In this document: in pieces, positions 9,137-24,516 of the stretch
How positions within the stretch are numbered: position 1 is the stretch's first letter
Layout of the letters: each line of letters opens with the position of its first letter
Assembly (NCBI GenBank): GCA_964592085.1
Contig: CAZQDO010000002.1
Span: 1 to 40,634 of the forward strand
Direction: 5' to 3'
Source: an uncultured Anaerolineae bacterium
GTDB taxonomy: Bacteria > Chloroflexota > Anaerolineae > VGOG01
Length of the DNA stretch: 40,634 bases
Position numbers and translations under genes: made by a program
Notes under the pieces: generated by a model
What the model saw: only the letters and a program-made list of their open reading frames with translations
Told to the model about the DNA's origin: nothing
Databases searched by the model: none

Positions 9137-10561
9137 ATGACGACTGCTTTGTGGTGGGTGCGCCGTGACTTGCGTCTGACGGACAACCAGTCCCTGGCCG
9201 CAGCCTTGACCCACGCCGACCTCGTGATCCCCGTCTTCGTGCTGGATCCGACGCTGCTGAATTCGCCCTACGTCGGGCCGAAGCGGGTGGCCTTCTTGCT
9301 GAGCGGTCTGCGGGCGCTGGACGCTGACCTGCGTATCCGAGGCAGCCGTCTGATCGTCCGCCAGGGCGTGCCCAGGGATGAACTCGCCGCCCTGTTGACC
9401 GAGTGCGGCGCCGGGGCCATCTTTGCCGAGGAGGACTTCTCACCCTACGCTCGGCAGCGCGACAGCGGCGTGGCCGAGCGATTGCCTCTGCACCTGGTCG
9501 GCGCTCCTATCGTCCATCGACCGGGAGCTGTCCTGAAGGCTGACGGTGCGCCCTACACGGTCTTCACGCCCTTTGGCCGCAAGTGGAAGGCCCTTCCGCC
9601 ACCACAAGCGGATGAGATTCTTCCGCCCCCAGATCGGATCCTCACGCCTTCAGGGGTGAACAGCCTGCCCATACCCACCGAACCGGCGCTCTCCCCCGAC
9701 GTGCCTTTTCTGCCAGGCGAAGCGGAAGCTCAACGCCGTCTTGGGGCCTTTGTGGGTGGTGAGGATCCGCCCATCTACCGCTACGCCACGATGCGTGATC
9801 GTCTGGATGTAGATGAGACCTCGCAGCTTTCTCCCTACTTGCGCTTCGGCGTGCTCTCCGCCCGCCAGGCAGTGGTAGCTTCCCTCGATGCGATAGCGGC
9901 GGCCCCTGATGCCGAGGACCGCGAAGGCGCCGAGACCTGGCTCAACGAGCTCATCTGGCGCGAGTTCTTCGTGCACATTCTTTACCACTTCCCCTACGTC
10001 CTGCAACAGAGCTTTCGTGCTGACCTGAGGACGATTCCCTGGGAGAACGCCCCGGGGGACTTCGCTGCCTGGTGTGAAGGGCGCACCGGCTACCCGGTGG
10101 TGGACGCCGCCATGCGACAGTTGGCCCAGACCGGCTGGATGCACAACCGGGCGCGTATGATCGTGGCCTCGTTTCTGGTGAAGCACCTGTTGGTTGACTG
10201 GCGCTGGGGAGAACGCTACTTCATGCAGCACCTGGTGGATGGTGATCCGGCGGCCAACAACGGCGGCTGGCAGTGGACGGCCGGCACCGGCACGGACGCC
10301 GCGCCCTACTTCCGCATCTTCAACCCTGTGTTGCAGGGCAGGAAGTACGACCCCCAGGGCGGCTTCGTGCGCCGTTGGGTGCCCGAGTTGGCCCGCCTGC
10401 CCGACAAGTTCATCCACCAGCCGTGGGAGATGCCCCTTCATGTTCAGCGGGAAGTTGGTTGCATCGTCGGGAAGGACTACCCCGCGCCTATCGTGGATCA
10501 TGCATGGGCACGGGAGCGGGCGTTGGCGACCTATGCACGGGCCAGGGAGGGACATAGATGA
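9137..10561 (+). CDS. phrB: deoxyribodipyrimidine (CPD) photolyase, class I / cryptochrome-photolyase family
   Basis: [13 protein letters not shown] at the N-terminus. The FAD-binding signature is [13 protein letters not shown]...[28 protein letters not shown]...[13 protein letters not shown]. Confidence 0.9.
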
Positions 10562-11127
10562 CTCACAGCTACCGCTCGGCATCTCTCGAAGCCTACGTCT
10601 CTGTGGACGTTGAGGCGGCAGGGCCTAACCCCAGCCAGTACTCTCTGCTATCCATCGGCGCCTGCCTGGTGTCCGATCCTCAGTGTACCTTCTACGTAGA
10701 GCTACAGCCCGTCAACGGCAACTTCACTCCAGAGGCACTGGTGGTCTCCCGCCTGTCGCTGGAGGAACTGGCCGAAGGCGGGCTGCCGCCGGCCGAGGCC
10801 CTGGCCTGCTTCGAGGCATGGCTGGCAGCCGAGGTCCCCCCTGCTCACCAACCCATCTTCGTGGCCTTTAACGCGCCTTTTGACTGGATGTTCGTCAACG
10901 ACTACTTCCACCGCTTCCTGGGGCGAAACCCCTTCGGCCACGCCGCTCTTGACCTGAAGGCCTTCTACATGGGGTTGACTGGCGTTCGCTGGTCGGAGAC
11001 CAGCATGCGCTACGTCGCCGCTCGCTACTTGGCCAACCGCCAGCTCACACACCACGCCCTGCGCGACGCCCAGGACCAGGCTGAGCTGTTCCAGAAGATG
11101 CTGGCTGAAGCAGCGGGTCGAGGGTAG
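10558..11127 (+). CDS. DEDDh-type 3'-5' exonuclease (DnaQ-like fold)
   Basis: The start ATG overlaps the photolyase stop (ATGA). Exo I is VDVEAAG, Exo II is [10 protein letters not shown], and Exo III is HHALRDAQD (H-x4-D). Confidence 0.7.
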
Positions 11128-11157
11128 AATGTACAGTGAAGTCCCTTCGCCCGGATG

Positions 11158-11212
11158 ATGACTTTGGTCATAGACAGATGACCGCTCTATTGATATAATT
11201 GGGACAGGTTTC
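11158..11212 (+). promoter_or_regulatory. conserved intergenic promoter/terminator-like module, copy A (hairpin arm degraded)
   Basis: ATGACTTTGGTCAT palindrome (11158-11171), TAGACA, a 17-nt spacer, and TATAAT (11194-11199). The geometry matches copies at 21150, 21811 and 34021. It lies about 45 nt upstream of the TspO-like start. Confidence 0.55.
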
Positions 11213-11245
11213 AAAGTAAACAAAACTGAAAGGCGGAGGTTATTG

Positions 11246-12028
11246 ATGAAGAAAGATAATCTGAGACAATGGGTCAATGTGCTGGCAGTGATTGCAGTCA
11301 TTGTGATTAATGGGCTGGCCAACGCCCTGCCGCTCAACGGGCAGACCACCGGCGAAATCTCTGATCGGTTCCAGGTCTACTTCGTGCCGGCTGGCTACGT
11401 GTTCGCCATCTGGGGGCTGATCTACGTGGCACTGATCGCCTTCGCCGTGTACCAGGCGCTGCCTGCCCAGCGGGACAACCCGCGCCTGCGCAGCATCGGC
11501 TATCTGTTCGCCCTGAGTTGTGCGGCCAACATCGCCTGGATCTTTCTCTGGCACTATGAGGTCTTCCCACTGACCCTGGTGGCCATGCTGTCGCTCTTGC
11601 TGCTGCTGATCGCCATCTACTTGCGCCTGGACATCGGCCGCGCTCAGGTTCCTGCAGCCGAGAAGTGGCTGGTGCACATCCCGTTCAGCATTTACCTGGG
11701 CTGGATCACGGTAGCGACCATCGCCAACGTGACCTCGCTCCTGGACTATCTGAACTGGAGCGGGTGGGGCATTAGCCCTGAGGCGTGGACGGTCATCATG
11801 CTGGTCGCCGGTGTCGGCATTGCCTCGGCGGTGAGCCTCACCCGGGGCGACGTGGCCTACATGCTGGTCATCGTGTGGGCCTTCGCGGGCATCGCCGTCA
11901 AGCACGCTGGCACGCCGGTGGTGGCGACCGCCGCCTGGGTGACGACGGCGCTGGCGGCCCTGATGGTGGTGGTGGGTTTCCTTTACAGGAAACGGCTCAA
12001 GGAAAGACTTGGGAAGGGGATGAAATGA
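11246..12028 (+). CDS. TspO/MBR-related tryptophan-rich membrane protein (long form)
   Basis: GGAGGT sits 5 nt before ATG 11246. Multi-pass, Trp/aromatic-rich; NALPLNGQTTGEISDRF...FVPAGYVFAIWGLIY...IAWIFLWHY resembles proteins annotated as tryptophan-rich sensory protein. The assignment is from memory of the family, not a search. Confidence 0.55.
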   Translation: MKKDNLRQWVNVLAVIAVIVINGLANALPLNGQTTGEISDRFQVYFVPAGYVFAIWGLIYVALIAFAVYQALPAQRDNPRLRSIGYLFALSCAANIAWIFLWHYEVFPLTLVAMLSLLLLLIAIYLRLDIGRAQVPAAEKWLVHIPFSIYLGWITVATIANVTSLLDYLNWSGWGISPEAWTVIMLVAGVGIASAVSLTRGDVAYMLVIVWAFAGIAVKHAGTPVVATAAWVTTALAALMVVVGFLYRKRLKERLGKGMK

Positions 12029-12510
12029 GCCAGCGAATTGCATTGAACGTCCAAGCGCCCGGTTTTGCTCTTGAGGATTTTGATGGGCGAACGGTAAGGC
12101 TCTCGGATTACCGTGGGCAGAAACATGTGCTCTTGGTCTTTAACCGTGGCTTCACGTGACCGTTCTGCCGCCGGCACATGGCACAGTTGCGTCAAGACTA
12201 TGAGAAATTCGTGGAAAAGAACGCCGAGGTGATCGTGATCGGCCCGGAAGACAAGGCGACCTATGCTGACTACTGGCAAAGGGAGAACCTGCCCTTCATC
12301 GGTTTGCCCGACCCTCAACACTCCGTGCTGAAACTGTATGGTCAGGAGGTCAACTTGTTCAAACTGGGGCGTATGCCAGCTCAGGTGATCGTGGACTGGG
12401 AGGGTATAGCTCGCTATGTTCACTATGGTCACTCGATGAGCGACATTCCGCCCAATGAAGAACTCCTGGCCCTGCTCGACGAGTTGAATCAGGAAGGGAA
12501 AGCAAAGTGA
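12025..12510 (+). CDS. peroxiredoxin-like / AhpC-TSA (thioredoxin-fold) protein with in-frame TGA at the redox motif: candidate selenoprotein (T-U-P-F-C)
   Basis: Two track ORFs (ending 12159, restarting 12178) share one frame and are separated only by TGA 12157-12159. Read-through gives ...HVLLVFNRGFT-U-PFCRRHMAQLRQDYEKF..., the canonical position of the first Cys of a CxxC/Prx motif. The start overlaps the upstream stop (ATGA) and the stop overlaps the downstream start (GTGA). Confidence 0.6.
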
Positions 12511-13499
12511 TTCCCAACCAATGGTACGTCGTGATGGATCCTGAGCAAGTTAAAGACCGGCCCGTGGGCGTGACGCGCCTGGGCGAAAAGCTGGTCTTCT
12601 GGCGGGATGACACAGGCAAGGTGAGTTGCCTGCGCGACAAATGCGTTCACCGGGGCGTTCAACTCAGCAAGGGCAAGGTGACAGGCGGGTATATCCAGTG
12701 TCCGTTTCATGGCTTCGAGTACGATGCCACTGGTCGCGTCAAGCTCATCCCAGCCAACGGCAAGAATACGCCCGTGCCGGAGCGCTTCAAAGTCCACAGC
12801 TATCCCACCTACGAAAATCACGGCTTCATCTGGATCTGGTGGGGCGAGGAGCCGCCGGACGGCCTCAAGCCGCCGCGTTTCTTCGACGACCTGGACGATA
12901 GCTTCTCCTACGGCAGGGCCTATGACCCCTGGGATGCCCACTATTCCCGCGTCATCGAGAACCAGCTCGACGTGGTGCACCTACCCTTCGTGCACCACAA
13001 CACCATCGGGCGCGGCGGGCGCACGCTGGTGGATGGCCCTGTGGTCCGCTGGATGGATGAGGACATGTTCTTCGTCTACGTCTTCAACCGGGTGGACGAC
13101 GGCACGCCGCCGCGCAGTCCAGAGGAGTTGACGTCCTCGGAGGGCCAAGTGTACCTGGAGTTCATTTTCCCCAACCTGTGGCAGAATCACATCTCGGAAC
13201 AGACGCGCGTTGTGGCCGCCTTCGTGCCGGTGGATGAAGCCCACACCATCCTCTACTTGCGCTTCTACCAGAACTTCGTGCGGCTGCCGCTACTGCGCGA
13301 TCTGTTCAACTGGTTATCCATGCCGTTCAACTTGCTGATCGCTCATCAGGATCGGCGTGTGGTGGTCACGCAGCAACCCAAGCCCTCCGGGCTCAAGATC
13401 GGCGAGAAGCTGATCCAGGGCGACCGGCCCATCGTGGAGTACCGCCGGCGGCGACAAGAACTTCTGGATGAAGTCGCCCGGCCGTCCACGTCGGATTAA
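12507..13499 (+). CDS. Rieske [2Fe-2S] non-heme-iron oxygenase, single-subunit type (PaO/KshA-like architecture)
   Basis: The Rieske motif is CVHRG-x16-CPFHGF. The mononuclear iron motif is ENQLDVVHLPFVHHN (E/D-N-x2-D-x2-H-x4-H). 330 aa with no beta-subunit gene. Confidence 0.8.
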   Translation: MIPNQWYVVMDPEQVKDRPVGVTRLGEKLVFWRDDTGKVSCLRDKCVHRGVQLSKGKVTGGYIQCPFHGFEYDATGRVKLIPANGKNTPVPERFKVHSYPTYENHGFIWIWWGEEPPDGLKPPRFFDDLDDSFSYGRAYDPWDAHYSRVIENQLDVVHLPFVHHNTIGRGGRTLVDGPVVRWMDEDMFFVYVFNRVDDGTPPRSPEELTSSEGQVYLEFIFPNLWQNHISEQTRVVAAFVPVDEAHTILYLRFYQNFVRLPLLRDLFNWLSMPFNLLIAHQDRRVVVTQQPKPSGLKIGEKLIQGDRPIVEYRRRRQELLDEVARPSTSD

Positions 13500-13515
13500 G
13501 CACACCTTCAGGCGA

Positions 13516-13574
13516 CGGAGTCCCCAACTTGTTGGGGGTATGGTGCAATGAACCCGAACAAGTTCGGGACTCCG
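13516..13574 (+). promoter_or_regulatory. paired 16-bp palindromes / long imperfect hairpin between the Rieske and MFS genes
   Basis: CCCCAACTTGTTGGGG (13522-13537) and CCCGAACAAGTTCGGG (13553-13568) are each self-complementary. They are flanked by CGGAGT / ACTCCG, so the whole region can also fold as one 22-bp-arm hairpin. Confidence 0.45.
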
Positions 13575-13634
13575 CTGCCGCGAGGTTGTTGCCCCAGGTA
13601 TCAAAATCAAAGTGATGGGCTAAATAGGTGGAAA

Positions 13635-14846
13635 ATGGATGTAAGAAGACGTCTTGCTTTGCTCTTCGCTTTTGTTTTTGTTGACGTACTCGGTTTCAGC
13701 CTGATCCTGCCGCTGTTGCCCTACTACGCCGAGACCTTTGGGGCCACACCTACCCTCGTTGGGCTGTTGCTGGGCGCCAACGCGGCAGCCCAATTCATCG
13801 GGGCGCCGATCATCGGGCGACTCTCTGACCGCTACGGGCGGCGGCCCTTGTTGATCCTCAGCATCGCTGGCACGGTGGTCAGCTTTGTGATACTTGGCCT
13901 GGCGAACTCGTTGGAGATGCTTTTCGCCAGCCGCATCCTGGACGGACTTCTGGGAGGCAACGTCTCGCTGGCCCAGGCCTACATTACCGACGTGACCGAC
14001 GACAAGAACCGGGCCAGGGGACTGGGTCTCATCGGAGCCGCCTTCGGTCTGGGGTTCATCTTTGGCCCAGCGTTGGGCGGTGCGCTCAGCACCGGGGGAA
14101 ACTACAGTTTGCCTGCCTTCGTGGCCGCTGGCTTGTCGGCCCTCAACTTGTTGGGCGTGCTCATCTGGCTGCCGGAGTCGCTGCCCCCAGAAAGACGCGC
14201 CCAAATGGCCAGTCACCCTCGTACCGCGTTCACAGCTCGCGCGTTGCGGGAAGCGTTGCGTCGTCCCTGCGTTGGCCCACTGTTGCAGGTGACCCTCTTC
14301 TACGGCCTGGCCTTCACCATCTTTCAGACCATCTTTACGCTCTTCGCTGAAAGACGGTTGAGCCTGGACTCGCGAGCCGTGGGCTATGTGTTCACCTACG
14401 TGGGTTTGCTTATCGTGGCTATACAGGGCGGTGGGATGGGACTCCTGACCAAACGCTTCAGCGAAAAGCATCTCATCTTCGGTGGAACGATCCTTCTGAC
14501 CTTTTCGTTGTTAGCGTGGGCACTGACCCCGACGCTGTGGCTGTTGTTGCTGGTGCTGGCCCCGCTGTCCCTGGCCAGCGGCGTGCTCAGGGTTTCCATC
14601 AACAGCGCGCTGACCAAATCGGTCTATCCGGAGGAGGTGGGGGGGACATTGGGCATGTCCGCTTCACTGGAGAGTCTGACGCGGGTCGTGTCGCCCATTG
14701 TGGGTGGGTTCCTGCTTGATAATCTGGGAACGGCGGCCCCAGGCATTGCGGGTGCCCTGCTCATGAGTTTGCTGATTCCCTTCGTGTGGAGGCGGGTGCT
14801 TTTCGTGCCGGATTTGGTATGCCCTGAGCCGATATTAGAGGGATAA
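13635..14846 (+). CDS. MFS transporter (drug:H+ antiporter / Tet-like, 12 TM)
   Basis: ATG 13635 gives MDVRRRLALLFAFVFVDVLGFSLILPLLPYY. MFS motif A is GRLSDRYGRRPLL. The upstream ORF extension (13548) runs through the palindromes and is rejected. Confidence 0.8.
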   Translation: MDVRRRLALLFAFVFVDVLGFSLILPLLPYYAETFGATPTLVGLLLGANAAAQFIGAPIIGRLSDRYGRRPLLILSIAGTVVSFVILGLANSLEMLFASRILDGLLGGNVSLAQAYITDVTDDKNRARGLGLIGAAFGLGFIFGPALGGALSTGGNYSLPAFVAAGLSALNLLGVLIWLPESLPPERRAQMASHPRTAFTARALREALRRPCVGPLLQVTLFYGLAFTIFQTIFTLFAERRLSLDSRAVGYVFTYVGLLIVAIQGGGMGLLTKRFSEKHLIFGGTILLTFSLLAWALTPTLWLLLLVLAPLSLASGVLRVSINSALTKSVYPEEVGGTLGMSASLESLTRVVSPIVGGFLLDNLGTAAPGIAGALLMSLLIPFVWRRVLFVPDLVCPEPILEG

Positions 14847-14927
14847 GGAGGATCCTATAAGACATGGACGCATTATCTTAGCCCAGGAACTTGAATGAGA
14901 CCGACTATCGAGAAAGGAGGAATTGAA

Positions 14928-15698
14928 ATGAACAATGAGCGGACTTTTACAGGGTTGCGCAGATTTAACGCAGCGATGGGTTTGCTCCACCTGGTGCAGG
15001 GGATCCTGATGATCGTTCTCAGCAACGATACCACCTATCCCATCACCACCGCCTACCTCAAGTTCGATTTCGAGAACTTCAAACTGACCTCGAATCTTCA
15101 GGAGACGGGAGAGCTGTTGTTTGGCCCGGCTGTCGCGGTGTTCCTGCTACTCTCGGCCGTGGCGCACTTCAGCCTGTCCACCTTCGGCTACAAGTGGTAC
15201 GTGAGGAATCTCAAGAAGGGCATGAACCCCGCCCGCTTCTACGAGTACGCCCTCAGTTCGTCGCTGATGATCGTCTTGATAGCCATGCTGGTAGGCATGT
15301 ACGACCTGCCCAGCCTGATCCTGATCTTCTCGCTGAACGCCATGATGAATCTGTTCGGCCACATGATGGAACTGCACAACCAGACAACGCCTCGCACCAA
15401 CTGGACGGCCTTCATCTACGGCTGTATCGCCGGGATCGTGCCGTGGATTACGATTGTGATGTATTTGGTTGGCGCGGCCCAATCGGTGGATGCCAAGCCG
15501 CCAGCGTTCGTATACGCCATCATCGCCTCCATCTTCGTGTTCTTCAACATCTTCGCGGTCAACATGTTCTTGCAGTACAAGAAGGTTGGCCCGTGGAAGA
15601 ACTACCTGTTTGGAGAGCGGATGTTCATCGTGCTGAGCCTGGTCGCCAAGACGGCCCTGGCCTGGCAGATATTCGCTGGCACCTTGGCCCCTGTTTAA
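14928..15698 (+). CDS. heliorhodopsin (inverted-topology type-1-like rhodopsin)
   Basis: AGGAGG sits 7 nt before ATG 14928. By eye it aligns along its whole length with the heliorhodopsin 48C12 sequence as I remember it. Matching segments are FNAAMGLLHLVQ, AVAHFS, RFYEYALSSSLMIVLIA (counterion Glu), YGCIAGIVPW, FVYAII.SIFVFFN, LQYKK.G.W.NYL.GER..IVLSLVAKTALAWQIFAGTL (Schiff-base Lys). Confidence 0.9.
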   Translation: MNNERTFTGLRRFNAAMGLLHLVQGILMIVLSNDTTYPITTAYLKFDFENFKLTSNLQETGELLFGPAVAVFLLLSAVAHFSLSTFGYKWYVRNLKKGMNPARFYEYALSSSLMIVLIAMLVGMYDLPSLILIFSLNAMMNLFGHMMELHNQTTPRTNWTAFIYGCIAGIVPWITIVMYLVGAAQSVDAKPPAFVYAIIASIFVFFNIFAVNMFLQYKKVGPWKNYLFGERMFIVLSLVAKTALAWQIFAGTLAPV

Positions 15699-15710
15699 TC
15701 AGAGGATTGT

Positions 15711-16187
15711 ATGAGCCGCTTGAGGCCTGACAAATTGCACGTCCGGTTTGCTGCCGGGGCAAGCCCAGACGGGCCGAGCACTCCCCGCCACTACACCCTG
15801 ACCCACTCCGACGCGACGGGGGACCTGTATCTCACCATCGGGCCGGACTACGACCGCCGGCAGATCTCAGGGTGGTATACCCGCTTAATGCGAGACGAGG
15901 TGCTGGCCGAGTGGCGGCAAGAGAAGGATGGCCCAGCCCTCCACGTTCACTGTCACGTGAGCGGTGGGTTGGTGATCGGCTCGGCTGGCTGGCGATATGC
16001 CATCTTCCAAAGAGAGTTGCCGCTGGTGTTGGAGGCCTTTCGCTTTGGCGACCGGCGGCTCTTTGAGATCGAGCCTGGGCTGGATCGGGCGCCCATTTGG
16101 GTGCATTTCCACGCCGCACAGCTTGGCTACAATAAGACCGAGTCGTGGGGCGTTCCCGCCGATTACCCTGAGAGGGGAGAGGCGTGA
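15711..16187 (+). CDS. Staygreen (SGR) family protein, Mg-dechelatase homologue
   Basis: Starts 12 nt after the heliorhodopsin stop. PRHYTLTHSD, GWYTRLMRDEVLAEW, LHVHCHVSGG, IFQRELPLVLEAF, IWVHFH and ESWG match the conserved SGR-domain blocks of plant SGR1 and bacterial homologues. Confidence 0.85.
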   Translation: MSRLRPDKLHVRFAAGASPDGPSTPRHYTLTHSDATGDLYLTIGPDYDRRQISGWYTRLMRDEVLAEWRQEKDGPALHVHCHVSGGLVIGSAGWRYAIFQRELPLVLEAFRFGDRRLFEIEPGLDRAPIWVHFHAAQLGYNKTESWGVPADYPERGEA

Positions 16188-17248
16188 GGCATTGGATGTT
16201 TGTTTGCCTTATCGTGGTCGTGGTGTTGCTGGTCATTCTGTTGGTCGGCCCCTTGGTGATCCCCTTGCCTCCGCTGGAGGGCGCTGTGCCGCCGCAGAAG
16301 TTGGCCGATCCCGACAGCCGTTTCGTTGACATAAACGGCCTACAAGTGCACTACAAGATGGCGGGCCAGGGTGAGCCTACGGCGGAAAACCTCGCGTTGG
16401 TGCTGCTGCACGGCTTCGCTGCCAGCGTCTTCTCCTGGCGCGAAGTCATGGATCCGCTGTCCGAAATCGGCACGGTGATGGCCTTCGACCGGCCCGCCTT
16501 CGGCCTGACCGAGCGCCCCCTGCCGGGCGAGTGGGTGGGTGAGAGCCCCTACGGTGCCGAGGCACAGATAGAGTTGACCGTTGGCTTGCTGGACGAGCTG
16601 GGGTTGGATCGGGCGATTCTGGTGGGCAACTCCGCTGGAGGCACCATCGCTATGCTCACGGCCTTGACCTATCCAGAGCGGGTGCAGGCTTTGGTGCTGG
16701 CGGATCCCGCCGTCTATGCCCACGGTGGCTGGATGGGCCTCGCCCGTTTCTTCGCCAACACGCCGCAGACGCAACGAATTGGGCCGCTGTTAGTTCGGAG
16801 GATCCGCGCCTGGGGGATGGACTTCGCTCGCTCTGCCTGGCACGATCCGTCGAAGATCACAGCCGAGGTTTGGGAGGGATACCTGAAGCCGCTACGGGCG
16901 GAGAACTGGGATCGGGGCCTATGGGAGTGGGTTCGCGCCAGCCAGTCCCACGATTTGGCGGAGCGGCTGGCTGAGATTCGGATGCCCTGCCTGGTCATCA
17001 CCGGCGACGATGACCGCATCGTGCCGGCGGAGCAGAGCGTCCGTCTGGCCGGTGAGCTGCCTGACGCCGAATTGGTGGTCATCCCAGACTGCGGCCACAT
17101 TCCCCACGAGGAGTGCCCGGAGGCGTTTTTGCAGGCAGTGGCCGATTTCTTGGACAAGCTGCCAACTGCTCACCCTCCCGCAGGTTTGGTCGGTGGTATC
17201 GGGCAAAACGTTAACTTCGGGCAAATATCCGGGCACCCTGTCCGATAA
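16184..17248 (+). CDS. membrane-anchored alpha/beta-hydrolase (serine esterase; pheophytinase/MhpC-like fold)
   Basis: GTG 16184 overlaps the SGR stop (GTGA); the alternative ATG is 16196. N-terminal TM helix (FVCLIVVVVLLVILLVGPLV), LLHGFAAS oxyanion region, GNSAGG nucleophile elbow and DCGHIPHEE catalytic His. The last ~29 codons (from ~17160) are encoded by MITE copy 2. Confidence 0.8.
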   Translation: MRHWMFVCLIVVVVLLVILLVGPLVIPLPPLEGAVPPQKLADPDSRFVDINGLQVHYKMAGQGEPTAENLALVLLHGFAASVFSWREVMDPLSEIGTVMAFDRPAFGLTERPLPGEWVGESPYGAEAQIELTVGLLDELGLDRAILVGNSAGGTIAMLTALTYPERVQALVLADPAVYAHGGWMGLARFFANTPQTQRIGPLLVRRIRAWGMDFARSAWHDPSKITAEVWEGYLKPLRAENWDRGLWEWVRASQSHDLAERLAEIRMPCLVITGDDDRIVPAEQSVRLAGELPDAELVVIPDCGHIPHEECPEAFLQAVADFLDKLPTAHPPAGLVGGIGQNVNFGQISGHPVR

Positions 17249-18559: not shown

Positions 18560-18590
18560 AAGAAAGATGAAACGAAAGGAGTCCAGACCA

Positions 18591-20858
18591 ATGAAGAAAG
18601 CGATTCTACTACTCACACTTTTTGCCATGCTGGTGACAGGGAGCGTCGTCACCGCAGCACCACCGAGCCAGGTGCCCGACGGGGAGACGTACATCGTGCA
18701 AGCGGGCGACTGGCTCCTGAAGATCGCCGAGAAGTTCTACGGCGATGCGGCCGCCTACCGCATCATCGTGGAGGCCACCAATGCCAAAGCCGCTGAAGAC
18801 GCCAGCTTTGTCGTGATTGACGACCCTAGCCTGATCAGGGTGGGACAGAAGCTGTGGATCCCATCTCCCGAAGTGGCGACCGAGGTCGTTGCCTACGTGC
18901 CACCTGTGCCCTCCGAAACCCATGATGGATACTGCTGGACCAACTTCTTGAACTCGCCCTACTCGTGGAGCTGTATGGTTGACAGCCAGATTTTCGAGCC
19001 TTGCCTCACCGCGACGAACGGTGAAACCATCGTCTGCAACATTGATCCACTGGACGAGGGCAAGCATTTCGGCCTGAACCTGACTGAACCGCTCCCTGAG
19101 CCGCAAGAAGCTCAACCAGATGCTCCGATATCGGGGATGACCTGGTTGCTGGAATTGGGCGATGGCGTCGTTTGCGGCCTGTTCAGTGGTGCATCCATTG
19201 GGTTCGATGAGAAGCGCGTGAACTACGGCTGCACCGACGGCACGGACATTCTGGGTGACCCGCAGCCCGGCACTGTCTGGACCGTCGAACAAATCGTGGT
19301 GGGTCATGACGAGGACGGTTTCTTCATCGAAGAGTCGGAAATCGTGCCGGTGATCAGAGCCTGGCAGCCAGGTAATCCCACCACCGACGGAAAAGGACTG
19401 ACCCTGGAGGCCCTGCAAAACGCTGTGTATCAGGGCATCTACGACGAACCCGTACAACTGACCGATGGGCAGTACGAAGGCGAGCCCTTCGTTCCAGGTG
19501 GCGCGTCACGGCCAACGGTCACACTGCACCCAGAGGTCTACGCCTTCGGCGATCTCAACGGCGATGGGGTGGACGATGCGGCGGTGATTCTGATCGAGAG
19601 CTCCGGTGGCAGTGGCAGCTTCCTCTATCTGGCGGCCGTCGTCAATGAAAGTGGGGCACCGGTGAACGTCGCTACCCAGTTCGTGGGGGATCGCGAGCAG
19701 GTACAGGCGATCAGCGTTGAGGCTGGTGAGATCACTCTCGAAATGGTCGCCCACGGCCCGGATGATCCCATGTGCTGCCCGACCCAGGAAGTGACGAAGG
19801 TGTACCAGTTGCAGGATGACCAACTGGTTGAGGTGCTCGTGGGTCTGGAAGGCACAACGTGGGTACTGGTCTCTTATGGCGATCCAAGCGATCCTCAGGC
19901 TGTTCTGGAAGGCACTGAGATCACGGTCGTATTCGACAGTGCTGAAGGTAGAGTCAGCGGCTCTGCGGGCTGCAACAGCTACTTCGGGTCGTATGAGGTT
20001 GACGAGGGCACAATCACCTTTGGCCTGCTGGGCGCTACCCTGATGGCGTGCCTTGAGCCAGAAGGGGTCATGGAGCAGGAAGCGGCCTATTTTGCGGCGC
20101 TGGACTCGGTTGTTACCTATCACATTCAGGGTGACAAGCTGGAGATGGGGGATACAGACGGCGCGCTGGTGCTGCAATTCACCGCTGTAAGCGAAGCGGC
20201 GCCGACCGAGGTGGTTGATGGGGAAGCGTACGTCGTGCAACCAGGCGACTGGCTCACGAAGATCGCCAGGAACTTTTACGGTGATGCCGATGCCTACCGT
20301 GTCATCGTGGAGGCCACCAACGCCAAAGCCGCTGATGATGCGAGCTTCGCCATCATTGACAACCCCAGCCTGATCAGAGTGGGGCAGAAGCTATGGATCC
20401 CTGCCCAGCCGGGTAGTCTGACCCTGGAGGCCCTGCGAAACGCTGTGTATCAGGGCATCTACGATGAGCCTGTGCAACTGACCGATGGGAAGTATGAAGG
20501 CGAGTCCTTCGTTCCAGGTGGCGCGTCACGGCCAACAGTCACGCTGTATCCTGAGGTCTACGCCTTCGGCGATCTCAACGGCGATGGGGTAGATGATGCG
20601 GCAGTGATTCTGATCGAGAGCTCCGGTGGCAGTGGCAGCTTCCTCTATCTGGCGGCCGTCCTCAATGAGGGGGGGACACCCGTGAACATCGCTACCCAGT
20701 TCGTGGGGGATCGCGAGCAGGTACAGGCGATCAGCATTGAGGCTGGCGAGGTCACCCTCGAAATGGTCGCCCACGGCCCCGGTGATCCCATGTGCTGTCC
20801 GACCCAGGAAGTCACGAAGAGATATCGGTTGCAGGGCGATCAACTGGTTGAGCTGTGA
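18591..20858 (+). CDS. secreted multidomain protein: LysM - Cys-rich domain - repeat domain R - META (HslJ-like) - LysM - repeat domain R
   Basis: The signal peptide MKKAILLLTLFAMLVTGSVVTAAPP follows AAGGAG. There are two LysM motifs (Y.VQ.GDWL.KIA..FYGD...Y..I..ATN...IRVGQKLWIP). The META-like segment is WVLVSYGD...GSAGCNSYFGSYEV...ATLMAC. The R domain contains FGDLNGDGVDDAAV. Confidence 0.75.
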   Translation: MKKAILLLTLFAMLVTGSVVTAAPPSQVPDGETYIVQAGDWLLKIAEKFYGDAAAYRIIVEATNAKAAEDASFVVIDDPSLIRVGQKLWIPSPEVATEVVAYVPPVPSETHDGYCWTNFLNSPYSWSCMVDSQIFEPCLTATNGETIVCNIDPLDEGKHFGLNLTEPLPEPQEAQPDAPISGMTWLLELGDGVVCGLFSGASIGFDEKRVNYGCTDGTDILGDPQPGTVWTVEQIVVGHDEDGFFIEESEIVPVIRAWQPGNPTTDGKGLTLEALQNAVYQGIYDEPVQLTDGQYEGEPFVPGGASRPTVTLHPEVYAFGDLNGDGVDDAAVILIESSGGSGSFLYLAAVVNESGAPVNVATQFVGDREQVQAISVEAGEITLEMVAHGPDDPMCCPTQEVTKVYQLQDDQLVEVLVGLEGTTWVLVSYGDPSDPQAVLEGTEITVVFDSAEGRVSGSAGCNSYFGSYEVDEGTITFGLLGATLMACLEPEGVMEQEAAYFAALDSVVTYHIQGDKLEMGDTDGALVLQFTAVSEAAPTEVVDGEAYVVQPGDWLTKIARNFYGDADAYRVIVEATNAKAADDASFAIIDNPSLIRVGQKLWIPAQPGSLTLEALRNAVYQGIYDEPVQLTDGKYEGESFVPGGASRPTVTLYPEVYAFGDLNGDGVDDAAVILIESSGGSGSFLYLAAVLNEGGTPVNIATQFVGDREQVQAISIEAGEVTLEMVAHGPGDPMCCPTQEVTKRYRLQGDQLVEL
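19398..19835 (+). repeat. intragenic duplication, unit 1 (domain R)
   Basis: A near-identical nucleotide copy lies exactly 1020 nt downstream (20418-20855), with scattered, mostly third-position or conservative substitutions by eye. Confidence 0.85.
20418..20855 (+). repeat. intragenic duplication, unit 2 (domain R)
   Basis: Copy of 19398-19835. It runs to the last sense codon of the gene. Confidence 0.85.
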
Positions 20859-21257: not shown

Positions 21258-21752
21258 ATGTTAAACAAGCCCATGCAGGACGCAATGAACGAGCAGATCA
21301 AGAACGAGCTCTACTCTGCCTACATCTACCTCTCAATGTCAGCCTACTTCGAGGACACCAGTCTCCCCGGCTTTGCCCACTGGATGCGAGTGCAGGCGCA
21401 GGAGGAGCAGGAGCACGCGATGAAGTTCTACCACTTCATCAACGAGCGGGGTGGCCGTGTTGTCCTTCAGGCCATTGATCAGCCGCCTATGGAATTTGAG
21501 TCACCCCTCGATGTGTTCGAGCGCACCCTCGAACATGAGCAGAGAGTGACGGGTTTGATTCATCAACTGTACGCCCTCGGCGTTCAGGAGCAGGACTACG
21601 CCAGCCAGATCTTTCTGCAGTGGTTCGTGACAGAGCAGGTCGAGGAAGAGGCCAACGCTACTCAGATCGTAGAGACGCTGAAGCTCATCGGCGATAAGCG
21701 CCATGCTCTCCTCATGCTGGATCGAGAGCTGGGCAGCCGGGGAGCTGACTAG
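21258..21752 (+). CDS. ftn: ferritin (non-heme, Ftn-type)
   Basis: MNEQIKNELYSAYIYLSMSAYF...HWMRVQAQEEQEHAMKFYHFINERGG contains the ferroxidase-centre Glu/His ligands. 164 aa. Confidence 0.9.
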   Translation: MLNKPMQDAMNEQIKNELYSAYIYLSMSAYFEDTSLPGFAHWMRVQAQEEQEHAMKFYHFINERGGRVVLQAIDQPPMEFESPLDVFERTLEHEQRVTGLIHQLYALGVQEQDYASQIFLQWFVTEQVEEEANATQIVETLKLIGDKRHALLMLDRELGSRGAD

Positions 21753-21810
21753 ACGAGCCACCGGCTGAGAAATGCGTCGGAGTGCGGACGTGGGTCTGCC
21801 CGATGCCTGA

Positions 21811-21870
21811 ATGACTTTTGTCATAGACAGTCGGCTGCCCTGGGGATATGATAAGGGCAGCCATTTTTTT
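21811..21870 (+). promoter_or_regulatory. conserved intergenic promoter/terminator-like module, copy C (between ferritin and copA)
   Basis: Perfect palindrome ATGACTTTTGTCAT (21811-21824), TAGACA, a 17-nt spacer and TATGAT (21847-21852). The hairpin GGCTGCCC/GGGCAGCC is followed by T7. Confidence 0.6.
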
Positions 21871-21964
21871 GAGAACATGGATGGACAGGATTTACGGCTT
21901 ATCCTACCAGTCCGTTAAATCCCGCCAGTCCGTTGTTCCTCTCTTTGGAAAAGGAGGTAACCAA

Positions 21965-24505: not shown

Positions 24506-24516
24506 AAAGGATACCC

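What the first reader, a model, noticed from the sequence alone, without database searches (positions are those of the whole stretch)
11246..17248. A plant-like chlorophyll-breakdown enzyme set (SGR + serine esterase + Rieske oxygenase), TspO-like protein, peroxiredoxin and exporter clustered around the heliorhodopsin
Seen in sequence: a single co-directional run holds seven genes.
- TspO/MBR-like membrane protein (11246-12028)
- thiol peroxidase-like protein (12025-12510)
- single-subunit Rieske/mononuclear-iron oxygenase (12507-13499; CxH...CxxH and ENxxDxxHxxxxH)
- MFS transporter
- heliorhodopsin
- SGR
- alpha/beta-hydrolase
The first three are chained by 4-nt start/stop overlaps (ATGA, GTGA).

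Established knowledge: the plant PAO/phyllobilin pathway uses SGR (Mg-dechelatase), pheophytinase (an alpha/beta-hydrolase) and PAO (a Rieske-type oxygenase that opens the macrocycle). TspO proteins bind tetrapyrroles and have been linked to light/oxygen-dependent porphyrin turnover. Free tetrapyrroles generate singlet oxygen and peroxides in light.

Inference: the block could be a complete import/sense - demetallate - dephytylate - ring-open - detoxify - export route for phototoxic tetrapyrroles. That would give bacterial SGR homologues a physiological context. The Rieske and esterase subfamily assignments are not secure from motifs alone.
Basis: partly seen in the sequence, partly recalled or inferred. 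Interest (0 to 1): 0.8.

Follow-up and report, generated by a model that had tools for sequence, protein, structure and literature searches.

The report
Light-stress gene island with SGR
An Anaerolineae-like bacterium keeps a homologue of the plant chlorophyll Mg-dechelatase (SGR) directly behind a light-sensing heliorhodopsin, inside a shuffled set of light/UV-damage protection genes; this gives prokaryotic SGR a first physiological context, but it is not a plant-like chlorophyll-breakdown pathway.

Summary
The seven genes are real, at the stated coordinates, with the stated 4-nt overlaps. SGR is solid: 60% identical to the crystallised Anaerolineae Mg-dechelatase, with all essential residues kept.

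The "plant-like set" fails on the other two enzymes:
- The Rieske protein is VanA/DdmC/NdmA-like with no PaO domain. It is never adjacent to SGR in 78 related loci.
- The hydrolase is a generic membrane-anchored Abhydrolase_1 esterase. It sits next to heliorhodopsin as often as next to SGR.

Across 78 SGR loci from different species (Chloroflexota, Bathyarchaeia and others), 60 carry the same recurring families in ever-changing order:
- membrane and transport proteins: heliorhodopsin, MFS, TspO (canonical or divergent);
- redox and protein repair: Sec-peroxiredoxin-like protein, MsrA/B;
- DNA repair: photolyase, UvdE, YbgA-like protein;
- a B12/MerR (CarH/LitR-type) photoreceptor, DUF1295 and two α/β-hydrolase families.

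So the block is one version of a mosaic light/UV/photo-oxidative-stress island. The constant pairings are heliorhodopsin→SGR and TspO→SGR, which support a tetrapyrrole-photosensitiser role for SGR. No held paper links heliorhodopsin and the dechelatase.

Also found: the "thiol peroxidase" has a conserved in-frame UGA and a SECIS-like hairpin, so it is probably a selenoprotein.

The parts
9137..10561 (+). DNA photolyase. It lies outside the finding's coordinates but belongs to the same recurring island.
   Evidence: Pfam DNA_photolyase + FAD_binding_7. Orthologues lie within 10 kb of SGR in 7 of 78 loci and next to the Rieske orthologue in L083, L085 and L086.
10558..11127 (+). DEDDh (RNase T-like) exonuclease, overlapping the photolyase stop by 4 nt. 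Its membership of the island is uncertain.
   Evidence: Pfam RNase_T at 31.5 bits. It is found near SGR only in the closest relative, L001.
11171..11199 (+). Sigma-70-like promoter (TAGACA-17-TATAAT with TG extension) in the 115-nt gap before the TspO-like gene.
   Evidence: 11 of 12 matches, the best site in 7.9-18.7 kb. Its function is not shown.
11246..12028 (+). Tryptophan-rich membrane protein of about 8 helices, distantly TspO/MBR-like.
   Evidence: Pfam TspO_MBR 24.2 bits against cut-off 24; 6 of 8 family members hit, best E 3.3e-7. NCBI and JGI name relatives TspO/benzodiazepine receptor. Solved TspO structures were not recovered by profile or Foldseek. It is directly adjacent to SGR in 5 loci, the position canonical TspO holds in 3 others.
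12025..12510 (+). Peroxiredoxin/thioredoxin-fold redox protein with a UxxC motif; a probable selenoprotein.
   Evidence: AhpC-TSA 82 bits. The best NCBIfam match is SelL-related redox protein, 78.6 bits against cut-off 120. The in-frame TGA is conserved in all 11 orthologues.
12157..12159 (+). In-frame UGA, the probable selenocysteine codon (GFT-U-PFC).
   Evidence: TGA at the same codon in 11 of 11 orthologues from different species, with the reading frame conserved on both sides.
12179..12194 (+). SECIS-like hairpin (UGGCAC-AGUU-GCGUCA) starting 22 nt after the UGA.
   Evidence: a 6-bp stem conserved in 12 sequences, with one compensatory change and G-U changes, and an invariant rare TTG Leu codon in the loop. 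The window copy has one A.C mismatch. The energy z-score of the single sequence is not significant.
12507..13499 (+). Alpha-only Rieske non-haem-iron monooxygenase of the VanA/DdmC/NdmA type.
   Evidence: Rieske + VanA_C, no PaO. PDB best hits are DdmC 8e-26, NdmA and SxtT. CxH...CxxH and DxxHxxxxH motifs are seen in the sequence. It is followed by an MFS gene here and in L042, L083 and L085.
13548..14846 (+). 12-TM DHA1-type MFS transporter, a probable exporter. The true start may lie at about 13635.
   Evidence: MFS_1 185 bits. It is Tet(A/B/C)-like at 199 bits, below the cut-off of 475. An orthologue sits directly upstream of SGR in 9 of 78 loci.
14895..15698 (+). Heliorhodopsin.
   Evidence: Pfam 339 bits; NCBIfam HeR equivalog 367 bits against cut-off 100. 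Lys252 (window numbering), the presumed retinal-binding Lys by position in the last helix, is invariant in the 13-sequence alignment. It sits directly upstream of SGR in 10 of 78 SGR loci.
15711..16187 (+). SGR / Staygreen Mg-dechelatase homologue.
   Evidence: Staygreen 166 bits. It is 60% identical without gaps to PDB 7Y5Y. R26, Y28, T29, H32, D34, D62 and D114, shown to be essential in AbSGR-h (PMC8531759), are all present.
16184..17248 (+). Membrane-anchored alpha/beta-fold serine hydrolase (GNSAGG nucleophile elbow, Asp and His present). Its start overlaps the SGR stop by 4 nt.
   Evidence: Abhydrolase_1 115 bits, no chlorophyllase family. PDB best hits are esterase Est1 and meta-cleavage-product hydrolases. 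An N-terminal hydrophobic helix is seen in the sequence. It is adjacent to SGR in 5 loci and adjacent to HeR without SGR in L117, L149 and L153.

Best explanation
The block 11.2-17.2 kb, together with the photolyase just upstream, is one arrangement of a mosaic light/UV/photo-oxidative-stress island. The island is widespread in Anaerolineae and other Chloroflexota and also occurs in Bathyarchaeia.

Its members are drawn from a common pool and are reshuffled even between close relatives. The pool has these groups:
- Light sensors: heliorhodopsin, and elsewhere a MerR+B12 CarH/LitR-type regulator.
- DNA repair: photolyase, UvdE, YbgA-like protein.
- Protein and redox repair: MsrA/B, and a selenocysteine UxxC peroxiredoxin-like protein.
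- Membrane/lipid enzymes: DUF1295, DegV, PlsY.
- Carotenoid genes.
- A 'photosensitiser-handling' group: SGR, TspO-type membrane proteins, a DHA1 MFS exporter and membrane-anchored esterases.

In the window these genes are probably transcribed from the promoter at 11171.

Proposed working (inferred):
1. Under light, lipophilic Mg-tetrapyrroles reach the membrane, for example chlorophyll derivatives acquired from phototrophic neighbours or necromass.
2. TspO-type proteins bind them and SGR removes the Mg.
3. The products are further processed or expelled, with the esterase and MFS as candidates.
4. The Sec-redoxin deals with peroxides or disulfides.
5. Heliorhodopsin supplies the light signal.

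The Rieske monooxygenase plus MFS pair is a separate island module of unknown substrate. It is not a PAO equivalent.

Shown: family identities, conservation of catalytic residues, and non-random mosaic co-localisation. Inferred: light induction, the in-vivo substrate, and the order of steps.
For: Recurrent neighbours:
- 60 of 78 SGR loci contain at least one of the recurrent families, and 32 of 78 contain HeR, photolyase, MerR-B12, UvdE or a YbgA-like gene. Families were identified.
- Gene orders differ from locus to locus.
- The association crosses phyla and domains: Dehalococcoidia L049, L050 and L072; Bathyarchaeota L051 and L056; archaeon L068.

Direct co-directional neighbours of SGR:
- HeR 10, MFS 9, TspO-like 5, canonical TspO 3, MsrB 5.
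- Two unrelated alpha/beta-hydrolase families, 5 each.

Views from other genes:
- Rieske-centred contigs put the Rieske orthologue among MerR-B12, photolyase, UvdE, YbgA-like, DUF1475, SDR, MFS and HeR genes in 5 of 7 cases.
- HeR-centred metagenome loci show ABH-HeR-Prx, DUF1295/DUF1475/DegV and HeR-SGR arrangements.

Reshuffling and enzyme identity:
- The close relative L001 (SGR 85%, HeR 92%) has HeR-SGR about 6 kb away from PHR-Exo-ABH-GlgC, and there ABH follows Exo directly. The six-gene block is therefore relocated between close relatives.
- SGR keeps every residue needed for Mg-dechelatase activity in AbSGR-h.

Literature:
- HeRs were already linked to photolyase, UvdE, peroxiredoxin and oxidative-stress genes (PMC8612252).
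- Photolyase and alpha/beta-hydrolase are listed among HeR neighbour classes (PMC11109279).
Against: - No light-regulator gene is in the 40-kb window, and no CarH-type 11-bp repeat operator is seen at the 11171 promoter. Light control here is therefore inferred only from relatives.
- The island is loose. SGR follows HeR in only 4 of 57 HeR-centred loci, and many HeR loci with long flanks have no island gene. 18 of 78 SGR loci have none.
- Most loci are from one phylum, so part of the signal is inherited synteny. The housekeeping gene TruD recurs in 3-4 loci, not far below Rieske at 5.
- There was no random-locus control from the same genomes; the chance expectation is my estimate.
- Pheophytin and pheophorbide are still photosensitisers, so dechelation alone does not detoxify.
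- The TspO-like assignment is weak.
- By the positive-inside rule, the hydrolase domain may face outward while SGR is cytoplasmic. This is an inference from the sequence.
Confidence: 0.6

Rival explanations
1. The block is a dedicated, complete, plant-like chlorophyll catabolic route:
1. TspO imports or senses the pigment.
2. SGR removes the Mg.
3. The esterase dephytylates, like PPH.
4. The Rieske enzyme opens the macrocycle, like PAO.
5. The peroxiredoxin detoxifies.
6. The MFS exports.
For: - SGR is authentic.
- SGR and the hydrolase overlap by 4 nt.
- An alpha/beta-hydrolase of one of two unrelated families is the direct co-directional neighbour of SGR in 10 of 78 loci. That looks like non-orthologous replacement of a needed esterase.
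- TspO-type genes sit directly upstream of SGR in 8 loci.
- PAO and this protein both belong to the alpha-only Rieske oxygenases (established knowledge).
Against: - The Rieske protein has VanA_C, not PaO, even at E<=10, and 0 of the 120 closest protein clusters have PF08417.
- It is 330 aa with no C-terminal membrane anchor or CxxC. Plant PAO is about 540 aa and has both (from memory).
- Its nearest solved relatives are O-/N-demethylases and hydroxylases.
- The Rieske gene is never adjacent to SGR. SGR is present in 1 of 7 Rieske-centred contigs.
- The trio SGR + hydrolase + Rieske occurs in only 2 of 78 loci.
- The hydrolase has no chlorophyllase domain and pairs with HeR in loci without SGR.
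- The SGR-ABH junction is lineage-specific.
- No RCC-reductase-like gene and no Rieske reductase partner is in the window.
Confidence: 0.12
2. A heliorhodopsin-centred regulatory module. HeR is a light-activated 'helper' that binds and modulates the products of its neighbouring genes (SGR, the MFS pump, the hydrolase). This has been shown for HeR with photolyase, glutamine synthetase and an ABC exporter. The genes cluster because they are HeR clients, not because they form a pathway. This reading is compatible with the best explanation.
For: - HeR-to-SGR with a gap of about 10-60 nt in 10 of 78 SGR loci and in the window (12 nt).
- MFS-HeR-SGR and ABH-HeR-Prx arrangements recur.
- Published HeR-photolyase and HeR-ABC transporter interactions, and alpha/beta-hydrolase as a listed HeR neighbour class (PMC9769723; PMC11109279).
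Against: - No interaction data exist for SGR.
- Most SGR loci (63 of 78) have no HeR within 10 kb, and most HeR loci have no SGR.
- TspO-SGR and MFS-SGR pairs exist without HeR.
Confidence: 0.15
3. There is no functional unit. The arrangement is inherited synteny plus chance in a long co-directional stretch of an Anaerolineae chromosome.
For: - The whole stretch 0.2-26.6 kb is on the + strand.
- TruD, a housekeeping gene, also recurs near SGR in 3-4 loci.
- Most loci come from one phylum.
Against: - The same families recur in different orders and orientations, and in archaea.
- Other flank genes (Exo, GlgC, LysM) recur only in the closest relative.
- The top recurrent clusters are almost all light/UV/redox families.
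- Translational-coupling overlaps are present.
Confidence: 0.08

Closest known systems
AbSGR-h, the Anaerolineae SGR homologue (PDB 7Y5Y), and plant STAY-GREEN Mg-dechelatase
   Same: - Staygreen domain.
- 60% identity over 152 residues without gaps.
- D34 and D62 (catalysis) and R26, Y28, T29, H32 and D114 are conserved.
   Different: - The activity of this particular protein is untested.
[quoted passage not shown]
- Here the gene is embedded in a light-stress island behind a heliorhodopsin. No held paper mentions both heliorhodopsin and dechelatase.
Heliorhodopsin-associated gene neighbourhoods (photolyase, alpha/beta-hydrolase, ABC transporter, glutamine synthetase, redox genes)
   Same: - HeR lies next to photolyase, an alpha/beta-hydrolase, a peroxiredoxin-type protein and an efflux transporter.
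- The general 'light-induced oxidative-stress mitigation' framework applies (PMC8612252; PMC11109279; PMC9769723).
   Different: - SGR, TspO-type proteins and the VanA-type Rieske oxygenase are not among the published neighbour classes. The main text of PMC8612252 has no occurrence of 'stay', 'TspO', 'Rieske' or 'tetrapyrrole'.
- The transporter is an MFS, not an ABC transporter.
CarH/LitR (MerR + B12-binding) light regulons of non-phototrophic bacteria
   Same: - In related loci the same genes sit beside a MerR_1 + B12-binding_2 + B12-binding regulator: 9 of 78 SGR loci, and L082, L083 and L097.
- Photolyase and carotenoid genes are classical targets of these regulators (PMC9758184, PMC8156234).
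   Different: - No such regulator is in this window, and no operator was recognised at the 11171 promoter.
- The regulators in the relatives are about 440-450 aa, longer than CarH (the CarH length is from memory).
- The SGR, TspO, HeR and Sec-redoxin content is not described for these regulons.
Plant PAO/phyllobilin pathway (SGR, PPH, PAO, RCCR)
   Same: - An SGR enzyme.
- An adjacent serine esterase with a GNSxGG elbow.
- A Rieske/mononuclear-iron oxygenase in the same run.
   Different: - The Rieske protein lacks the PaO domain and groups with VanA/DdmC/NdmA.
- The esterase cannot be assigned to PPH, and the chlorophyllase family test is not met.
- There is no RCCR.
- The three genes rarely co-occur.
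Bacterial TspO (tryptophan-rich sensory protein), a porphyrin-binding membrane protein
   Same: - Tryptophan-rich membrane protein with a marginal TspO_MBR match.
- It occupies the same position, directly upstream of SGR, that canonical TspO (167 bits) occupies in L026, L044 and L054.
   Different: - About 8 predicted helices and 261 aa, against 5 helices and about 160 aa.
- Solved TspO structures were not recovered by profile search or Foldseek. hhalign against canonical TspO gave only 12% probability.
Prx-like/SelL-type UxxC selenoproteins of bacteria
   Same: - Thioredoxin-fold AhpC/TSA protein with U at the redox motif.
- Conserved UGA and a downstream hairpin with G/U in the loop.
   Different: - It scores below the NCBIfam SelL-related cut-off (78.6 against 120).
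- A consistent placement in a heliorhodopsin/SGR light island is not, to my knowledge, described.

Membership tests
SGR / Staygreen Mg-dechelatase | Staygreen domain above the Pfam gathering score. | tested here: met
   PF12638, 166.3 bits against cut-off 27. Profile hit to 7Y5Y with E 2.5e-72.
SGR / Staygreen Mg-dechelatase | Residues essential in AbSGR-h: D34 and D62 for catalysis; R26, Y28, T29 and D114 for structure; H32. | tested here: met
   All are present at identical positions in a gapless alignment. The residue list comes from PMC8531759. They are invariant in the 16-sequence alignment.
SGR / Staygreen Mg-dechelatase | Mg-dechelating activity on chlorophyll a or its derivatives. | not testable with these tools
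   Shown only for the 60%-identical AbSGR-h (PMC8531759, PMC11006732).
PAO / Tic55 / PTC52 / CAO Rieske oxygenases | Rieske CxH...CxxH centre and mononuclear-iron DxxHxxxxH motif. | tested here: met
   PF00355 at 87 bits. The motifs CVH...CPFH and DVVHLPFVH are seen in the translation. These features are shared by all Rieske oxygenases and are not specific to PAO.
PAO / Tic55 / PTC52 / CAO Rieske oxygenases | C-terminal PaO domain (PF08417). | tested here: not met
   Not reported even at E<=10; VanA_C is found instead (62 bits), with weak KshA_C. None of the 120 closest homologue clusters carries PF08417.
PAO / Tic55 / PTC52 / CAO Rieske oxygenases | Phylogenetic placement inside the PAO clade against VanA, DdmC, KshA and CMO. 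| not testable with these tools
   No PAO-family reference sequences could be obtained. As a proxy, the best solved relatives are DdmC 8e-26, NdmA 3e-25 and SxtT 4e-25, with KshA at 1e-15. The best NCBIfam match is the sterol demethylase SdmA, 72 bits against cut-off 600.
Pheophytinase (PPH) | Alpha/beta-hydrolase fold with a Ser-Asp-His triad (GNSxGG elbow). | tested here: met
   Abhydrolase_1 at 115 bits. GNSAGG, DDDR and GH are seen in the sequence. This is not specific: MCP hydrolases and many esterases share it.
Pheophytinase (PPH) | Orthology to plant or cyanobacterial PPH and phytol-ester hydrolysis. | not testable with these tools
   No PPH reference sequence or model is in the available libraries.
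Chlorophyllase (CLH) | Chlorophyllase Pfam families PF07224 / PF12740. | tested here: not met
   Neither family is among the 13 listed at E<=10.
TspO/MBR | Match to PF03073 above the gathering score. | tested here: inconclusive
   24.2 bits against cut-off 24.0 for the window protein. 6 of 8 family members match, best E 3.3e-7. hhalign against a canonical TspO gave E 0.0023 and 12% probability.
TspO/MBR | Five-helix TspO fold similar to solved structures. | tested here: not met
   The AlphaFold model (pLDDT 71, pTM 0.63) has about 8 helices. Foldseek against the PDB gave no hit with E<=0.001 and no TspO. A profile search of PDB sequences found no TspO at E<=1. Model quality limits this test.
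Heliorhodopsin | HeR equivalog model and a conserved Lys in the last helix (presumed retinal-binding Lys). | tested here: met
   NF038020 at 367 bits against cut-off 100. K252 is invariant in the 13-sequence alignment; its role as the Schiff-base Lys was not checked against a reference heliorhodopsin.
Bacterial selenoprotein | In-frame UGA at a redox Cys position, conserved in orthologues, with coding continuing downstream. | tested here: met
   TGA in 11 of 11 orthologues plus the window, with the flanking peptide conserved.
Bacterial selenoprotein | bSECIS hairpin shortly after the UGA. | tested here: inconclusive
   A 6-bp stem with an AGUU loop lies 22-38 nt after the UGA, with 1 compensatory change and an invariant TTG codon. 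The sequence is also constrained by coding, the folding z-score is -0.63, and there is no Rfam hit.
Bacterial selenoprotein | Sec machinery (selA, selB, selC, selD) in the genome. | not testable with these tools
   No tRNA genes are in the window. The rest of the genome is not available.
CarH/LitR light regulon | A MerR+B12-binding regulator encoded with or near its targets. | tested here: not met
   No homologue is in the window. One is present in 9 of 78 related SGR loci and beside Rieske or HeR orthologues in L082, L083 and L097.
CarH/LitR light regulon | An operator overlapping the target promoter. | tested here: inconclusive
   ACA triplets spaced 11 bp apart overlap the promoters upstream of the regulator gene in L018 and L043. 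Nothing comparable is at window 11171-11199. The k-mer enrichment found only -35-like words.
Tet-type DHA1 MFS efflux pumps | Score above the NCBIfam Tet(A/B/C) family cut-off. | tested here: not met
   198.6 bits against cut-off 475. It is a general MFS_1 member (185 bits). The direction of transport is inferred.

The most novel reading that the evidence does not exclude
Prokaryotic SGR homologues are light-stress enzymes. They are co-transcribed with, and possibly controlled by, heliorhodopsin. They work at the membrane with TspO-type porphyrin binders, membrane-anchored esterases and an MFS pump, and strip Mg from and dispose of chlorophyll-type photosensitisers picked up from phototrophic neighbours. 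This photoprotective demetallation module would be the ancestral function from which green plants later recruited SGR, by horizontal transfer, for chlorophyll breakdown.
Probability: 0.3. Interest if true: 0.8.

Novelty: new variant of a known kind. Interest (0 to 1): 0.6.

Why it matters
Bacterial and archaeal SGR homologues are active Mg-dechelatases in vitro and are thought to be the source of the plant enzyme. Their physiological role is explicitly described as unknown (PMC8531759).

Here SGR is shown to be a recurrent member of a light/UV/photo-oxidative-stress island, typically right behind a heliorhodopsin, a TspO-type protein or an MFS pump. That turns the open question into testable predictions:
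- light-induced expression;
- protection against chlorophyll-sensitised photodamage;
- possible HeR-SGR coupling.

It also adds a new client candidate to the short list of heliorhodopsin partners. It widens the gene content of light regulons in non-phototrophic Chloroflexota and archaea. It warns against reading 'Rieske + esterase + SGR' as a plant-like PAO pathway.

Tried and rejected
- Searching for PAO or chlorophyllase signatures with Pfam at E<=10 found none.
- Confirming the TspO fold gave nothing usable. A profile search of PDB sequences, an AlphaFold model from 15 close homologues (pLDDT 71) with Foldseek against the PDB, and hhalign against canonical TspO and against the Dehalococcoidia 'c18' membrane family were all negative or weak.
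- Looking for a shared operator came up empty. An 8-mer enrichment over 128 upstream regions of island genes returned only -35-like and AT-rich words. Inspection of the regions upstream of MerR-B12 genes showed ACA triplets 11 bp apart in L018 and L043 but nothing matching at the window promoter.
- An Rfam scan of the window gave no hits, so no riboswitch or SECIS family. There are no tRNA genes.
- Looking up the window's own SGR protein to learn its source record failed; it is not on record.
- Searching the window for island members seen elsewhere (MerR-B12, UvdE, YbgA-like, DUF1295, DUF1475, MsrA/B, PNPOx, SDR-DUF1731, DegV) found them all absent.
- I considered and rejected 'operon proven by co-directionality', because 26 kb are co-directional.
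- I considered and rejected a phototroph recycling its own pigment. No photosynthesis genes were seen in the window or in the 20-kb loci, and SGR occurs in Dehalococcoidia and Bathyarchaeia. Whole genomes were not checked.

Full report
**1. Observation**

They carry the stated families:

| Gene | Coordinates | Family evidence |
|---|---|---|
| TspO/MBR-like | 11246-12028 | Marginal: 24.2 bits against a gathering score of 24.0 |
| AhpC-TSA/Redoxin protein | 12025-12510 | 82 bits |
| Rieske + VanA_C oxygenase | 12507-13499 | 87 and 62 bits |
| MFS_1 transporter | 13548-14846 | 185 bits |
| Heliorhodopsin | 14895-15698 | NCBIfam equivalog 367 bits |
| Staygreen protein (SGR) | 15711-16187 | 166 bits |
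| Abhydrolase_1 serine hydrolase | 16184-17248 | 115 bits |

- The 4-nt overlaps ATGA (12025-12028) and GTGA (12507-12510) are real. A third one, GTGA at 16184-16187, joins SGR and the hydrolase.
- The redoxin ORF contains an in-frame TGA at 12157-12159.
- Co-directionality is uninformative, because all long ORFs from 213 to 26661 are on the + strand.
- A good sigma-70-like promoter (11/12 match, TG-extended) lies at 11171-11199 in the 115-nt gap before the TspO-like gene. No convincing terminator follows until after the hydrolase. An operon from the TspO-like gene to the hydrolase is plausible but not shown.
- The rest of the window encodes transporters, histidine kinases, ferritin and P-type ATPases, with no photosynthesis genes.

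**2. The individual proteins**

SGR:
- It aligns without gaps to the crystallised Anaerolineae homologue 7Y5Y at 60% identity.
- It keeps D34 and D62 (catalysis), R26, Y28, T29 and D114 (structure) and H32. These were shown by mutagenesis to be needed for Mg-dechelatase activity (PMC8531759).

Rieske protein:
- It has the 2Fe-2S and mononuclear-iron motifs, but its catalytic domain is VanA_C. The PaO domain that marks PAO, Tic55, PTC52 and CAO is not found even at E<=10.
- All 120 closest homologue clusters (70-86% identity, mostly Anaerolineae) are Rieske + VanA_C.
- Its best solved relatives are dicamba O-demethylase DdmC, caffeine N-demethylase NdmA and the saxitoxin hydroxylase SxtT. The best NCBIfam hit is the sterol demethylase SdmA, far below its cut-off.

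Hydrolase:
- It has an N-terminal hydrophobic anchor, a GNSAGG elbow and Asp/His.
- Its nearest structures are carboxylesterases and meta-cleavage-product hydrolases.
- Neither chlorophyllase family is matched.
- A PPH-specific test was not possible.

TspO-like protein:
- It is tryptophan-rich, and 6 of 8 family members hit TspO_MBR. NCBI and JGI call relatives TspO.
- A profile search of the PDB, an AlphaFold model (pLDDT 71, about 8 helices) with Foldseek, and hhalign against a canonical TspO gave no or weak support.

**3. Neighbourhood conservation, SGR-centred**

A scan of one genome per GTDB species returned 351 SGR-encoding stretches. The best 80 were fetched with up to 10 kb of flank. 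They come mostly from Anaerolineae and other Chloroflexota, but also from Dehalococcoidia, Bathyarchaeia, Hadarchaeota, Thorarchaeota and a Bacillota MAG.

tblastn with the window's proteins, and de novo clustering of all ORFs, show that orthologues of the window genes recur near SGR:

| Family | Loci of 78 | Directly adjacent, same strand |
|---|---|---|
| MFS | 16 | 9 |
| HeR | 15 | 10 |
| Redoxin (Prx) | 11 | 1 |
| TspO-like | 8 | 5 |
| Hydrolase (ABH) | 8 | 5 |
| Photolyase | 7 | 2 |
| Rieske | 5 | 0 |

Other flank genes of the window serve as controls. Exo, GlgC and LysM occur in 1, 1 and 0 loci, and only in the closest relative. TruD occurs in 3-4.

The recurrent families that are not in the window are the more informative result:
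- a MerR + B12-binding regulator with CarH/LitR architecture (9 loci);
- UvdE (7);
- a 2-thiouracil-desulfurase/DUF1722 YbgA-like protein (8);
- DUF1295 (7);
- MsrA (6) and MsrB (7);
- a PNPOx-like protein (11);
- an SDR with DUF1731 (10);
- DegV (14);
- DUF1475 (12) and DUF4345 (6), both small membrane proteins;
- a second alpha/beta-hydrolase family, Abhydrolase_5 (7);
- canonical TspO at 167 bits (4 loci, directly upstream of SGR in 3);
- a canonical Cys-peroxiredoxin;
- phytoene synthase, phytoene desaturase and lycopene cyclase.

Sixty of the 78 loci carry at least one of these families. Thirty-two carry HeR, photolyase, MerR-B12, UvdE or YbgA-like. By my estimate a random gene would have one of those five within 10 kb in a few percent of cases. 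That expectation is an inference, not a computed control.

Gene order differs from locus to locus, and the link holds in archaea (L051, L056, L068).

**4. Other viewpoints**

Rieske-centred:
- Seven long contigs carrying Rieske orthologues were inspected.
- Five place the gene among MerR-B12, photolyase, UvdE, YbgA-like, DUF1475, SDR-DUF1731, MFS and HeR genes.
- SGR is present in one of the seven.
- The Rieske gene is followed by an MFS gene in L083 and L085, as in the window and in L042.

HeR-centred:
- Eighty metagenome loci of HeRs 59-93% identical were fetched.
- SGR lies directly downstream in 4 of the 57 loci with enough flank.
- ABH-HeR-Prx recurs without SGR (L117, L149, L153).
- DUF1295, DUF1475, DegV and DUF4345 recur. 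Many loci have no island gene at all.

Close relatives are rearranged:
- L001 (SGR 85%, HeR 92% identity) has HeR-SGR about 6 kb from PHR-Exo-ABH-GlgC.
- There the hydrolase starts with ATG right after the exonuclease. In the window the six genes from TspO-like to SGR sit between them, and the SGR stop overlaps a GTG start.
- The SGR-hydrolase coupling in the window is therefore lineage-specific.

**5. Interpretation**

The block is one arrangement of a mosaic island devoted to light, UV and photo-oxidative stress.
- The best-conserved local pairs around SGR are membrane protein followed by SGR (HeR, MFS, TspO-type, DUF1475, and a Dehalococcoidia-specific family without a Pfam match). SGR followed by a membrane-anchored esterase or MsrB is also common.
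- SGR is a proven tetrapyrrole enzyme family, and TspO proteins bind porphyrins (established knowledge). This supports a role for SGR in handling Mg-tetrapyrrole photosensitisers under light.
The order of steps, the in-vivo substrate and light induction are inferred.
- The 'plant-like SGR + PPH + PAO' reading is not supported. The Rieske enzyme is not of the PAO type and is not SGR-linked, the esterase is not specifically SGR-linked, and the trio co-occurs in only 2 of 78 loci.
- An overlapping alternative is that these proteins are clients of heliorhodopsin, as shown for photolyase and an ABC exporter (PMC9769723, PMC11109279).

**6. Relation to the literature**

- Photolyase and alpha/beta-hydrolase are among ten published HeR neighbour classes (PMC11109279).
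- CarH/LitR light regulons are well known.
- SGR, TspO and this Rieske family are not mentioned in those analyses. No paper in the held library contains both 'heliorhodopsin' and 'dechelatase'.
- The role of bacterial SGR is stated to be unknown.
- I therefore rate this as a new variant of a known kind: a HeR/light-stress island whose new, recurrent member is SGR.

**7. Side finding: a probable selenoprotein**

- The redoxin's TGA is conserved in all 11 orthologues, with the frame conserved on both sides.
- It is followed, 22 nt later, by a conserved 6-bp hairpin with an AGUU loop. That hairpin shows one compensatory change and an invariant TTG codon.
- The protein is probably a UxxC selenoprotein. 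The best NCBIfam model is SelL-related redox protein, below its cut-off.
- Sec machinery could not be checked.

**8. Limits**

- No random-locus control was run.
- Most loci come from one phylum.
- No expression or biochemical data exist for this block.
- No PAO or PPH reference sequences were available for trees.
- The TspO-like assignment remains weak.
- No regulator or operator was found in the window.

Noticed in passing
window 12157-12194 (gene 12025-12510): The 'thiol peroxidase' has an in-frame TGA (GFT-U-PFC) that is conserved in 11 of 11 orthologues, followed by a conserved hairpin UGGCGC-AGUU-GCGCCA. It is probably a UxxC selenoprotein.
   Followed up: yes
window 11128-16187 compared with L001 6960-7260: In the closest relative (L001) the hydrolase follows the exonuclease directly and starts with ATG. 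In the window the six genes from TspO-like to SGR lie between them, and the SGR stop overlaps a GTG start. The block has moved between close relatives.
   Followed up: partly
L026, L044, L054 (canonical TspO directly upstream of SGR); L052: A canonical 163-aa TspO/MBR (167 bits) occupies the same position before SGR that the divergent 261-aa TspO-like protein occupies in the window's family. This suggests functional equivalence.
   Followed up: partly
L058, L063-L067, L069 (e.g. L069:9052-9591): In Dehalococcoidia a conserved membrane protein of about 178 aa, with no Pfam match, sits just upstream of SGR. It is preceded by STAS/DUF1990, FAD amine-oxidase-like, SDR and steroid-5-alpha-reductase-like genes. 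It shows no detectable similarity to the TspO-like family.
   Followed up: partly
L015, L022, L027, L031, L043, L075, L076: A second, unrelated membrane-anchored alpha/beta-hydrolase family (Abhydrolase_5, 190 bits) follows SGR where the window's Abhydrolase_1 type is absent. This may be non-orthologous replacement of an esterase partner.
   Followed up: partly
L018 1-98; L043 about 7040-7150: The promoters upstream of the MerR+B12 regulator genes carry ACA triplets spaced 11 bp apart, overlapping the region between -35 and -10. This is reminiscent of CarH operators. The regulators are about 440-450 aa, with a C-terminal extension.
   Followed up: no
L002, L053 (e.g. L053:1-3164): Carotenoid genes (phytoene desaturase, phytoene synthase, lycopene cyclase) lie a few genes upstream of SGR in two loci, fitting the photoprotection theme. 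They could also supply the retinal precursor for heliorhodopsin.
   Followed up: no
window 18567-20858: This large secreted protein contains two near-identical internal copies of a long module. Each copy has a LysM-like stretch (GDWL.KIA..FYGD...) and a segment of about 150 aa ending in ...MCCPTQEVTK. This was seen by eye in the translation; the domains were not tested.
   Followed up: no
window 21258-26661: A ferritin-like gene is followed by two heavy-metal P-type ATPases with HMA domains (metal homeostasis), immediately downstream of the island region. No link to the finding was established.
   Followed up: no
window 13548-13635 and 14895-14928: The longest-ORF starts of the MFS and heliorhodopsin genes probably overshoot. 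Homology begins about 29 and about 11 codons downstream respectively, so the real intergenic gaps are larger than 48 nt.
   Followed up: no
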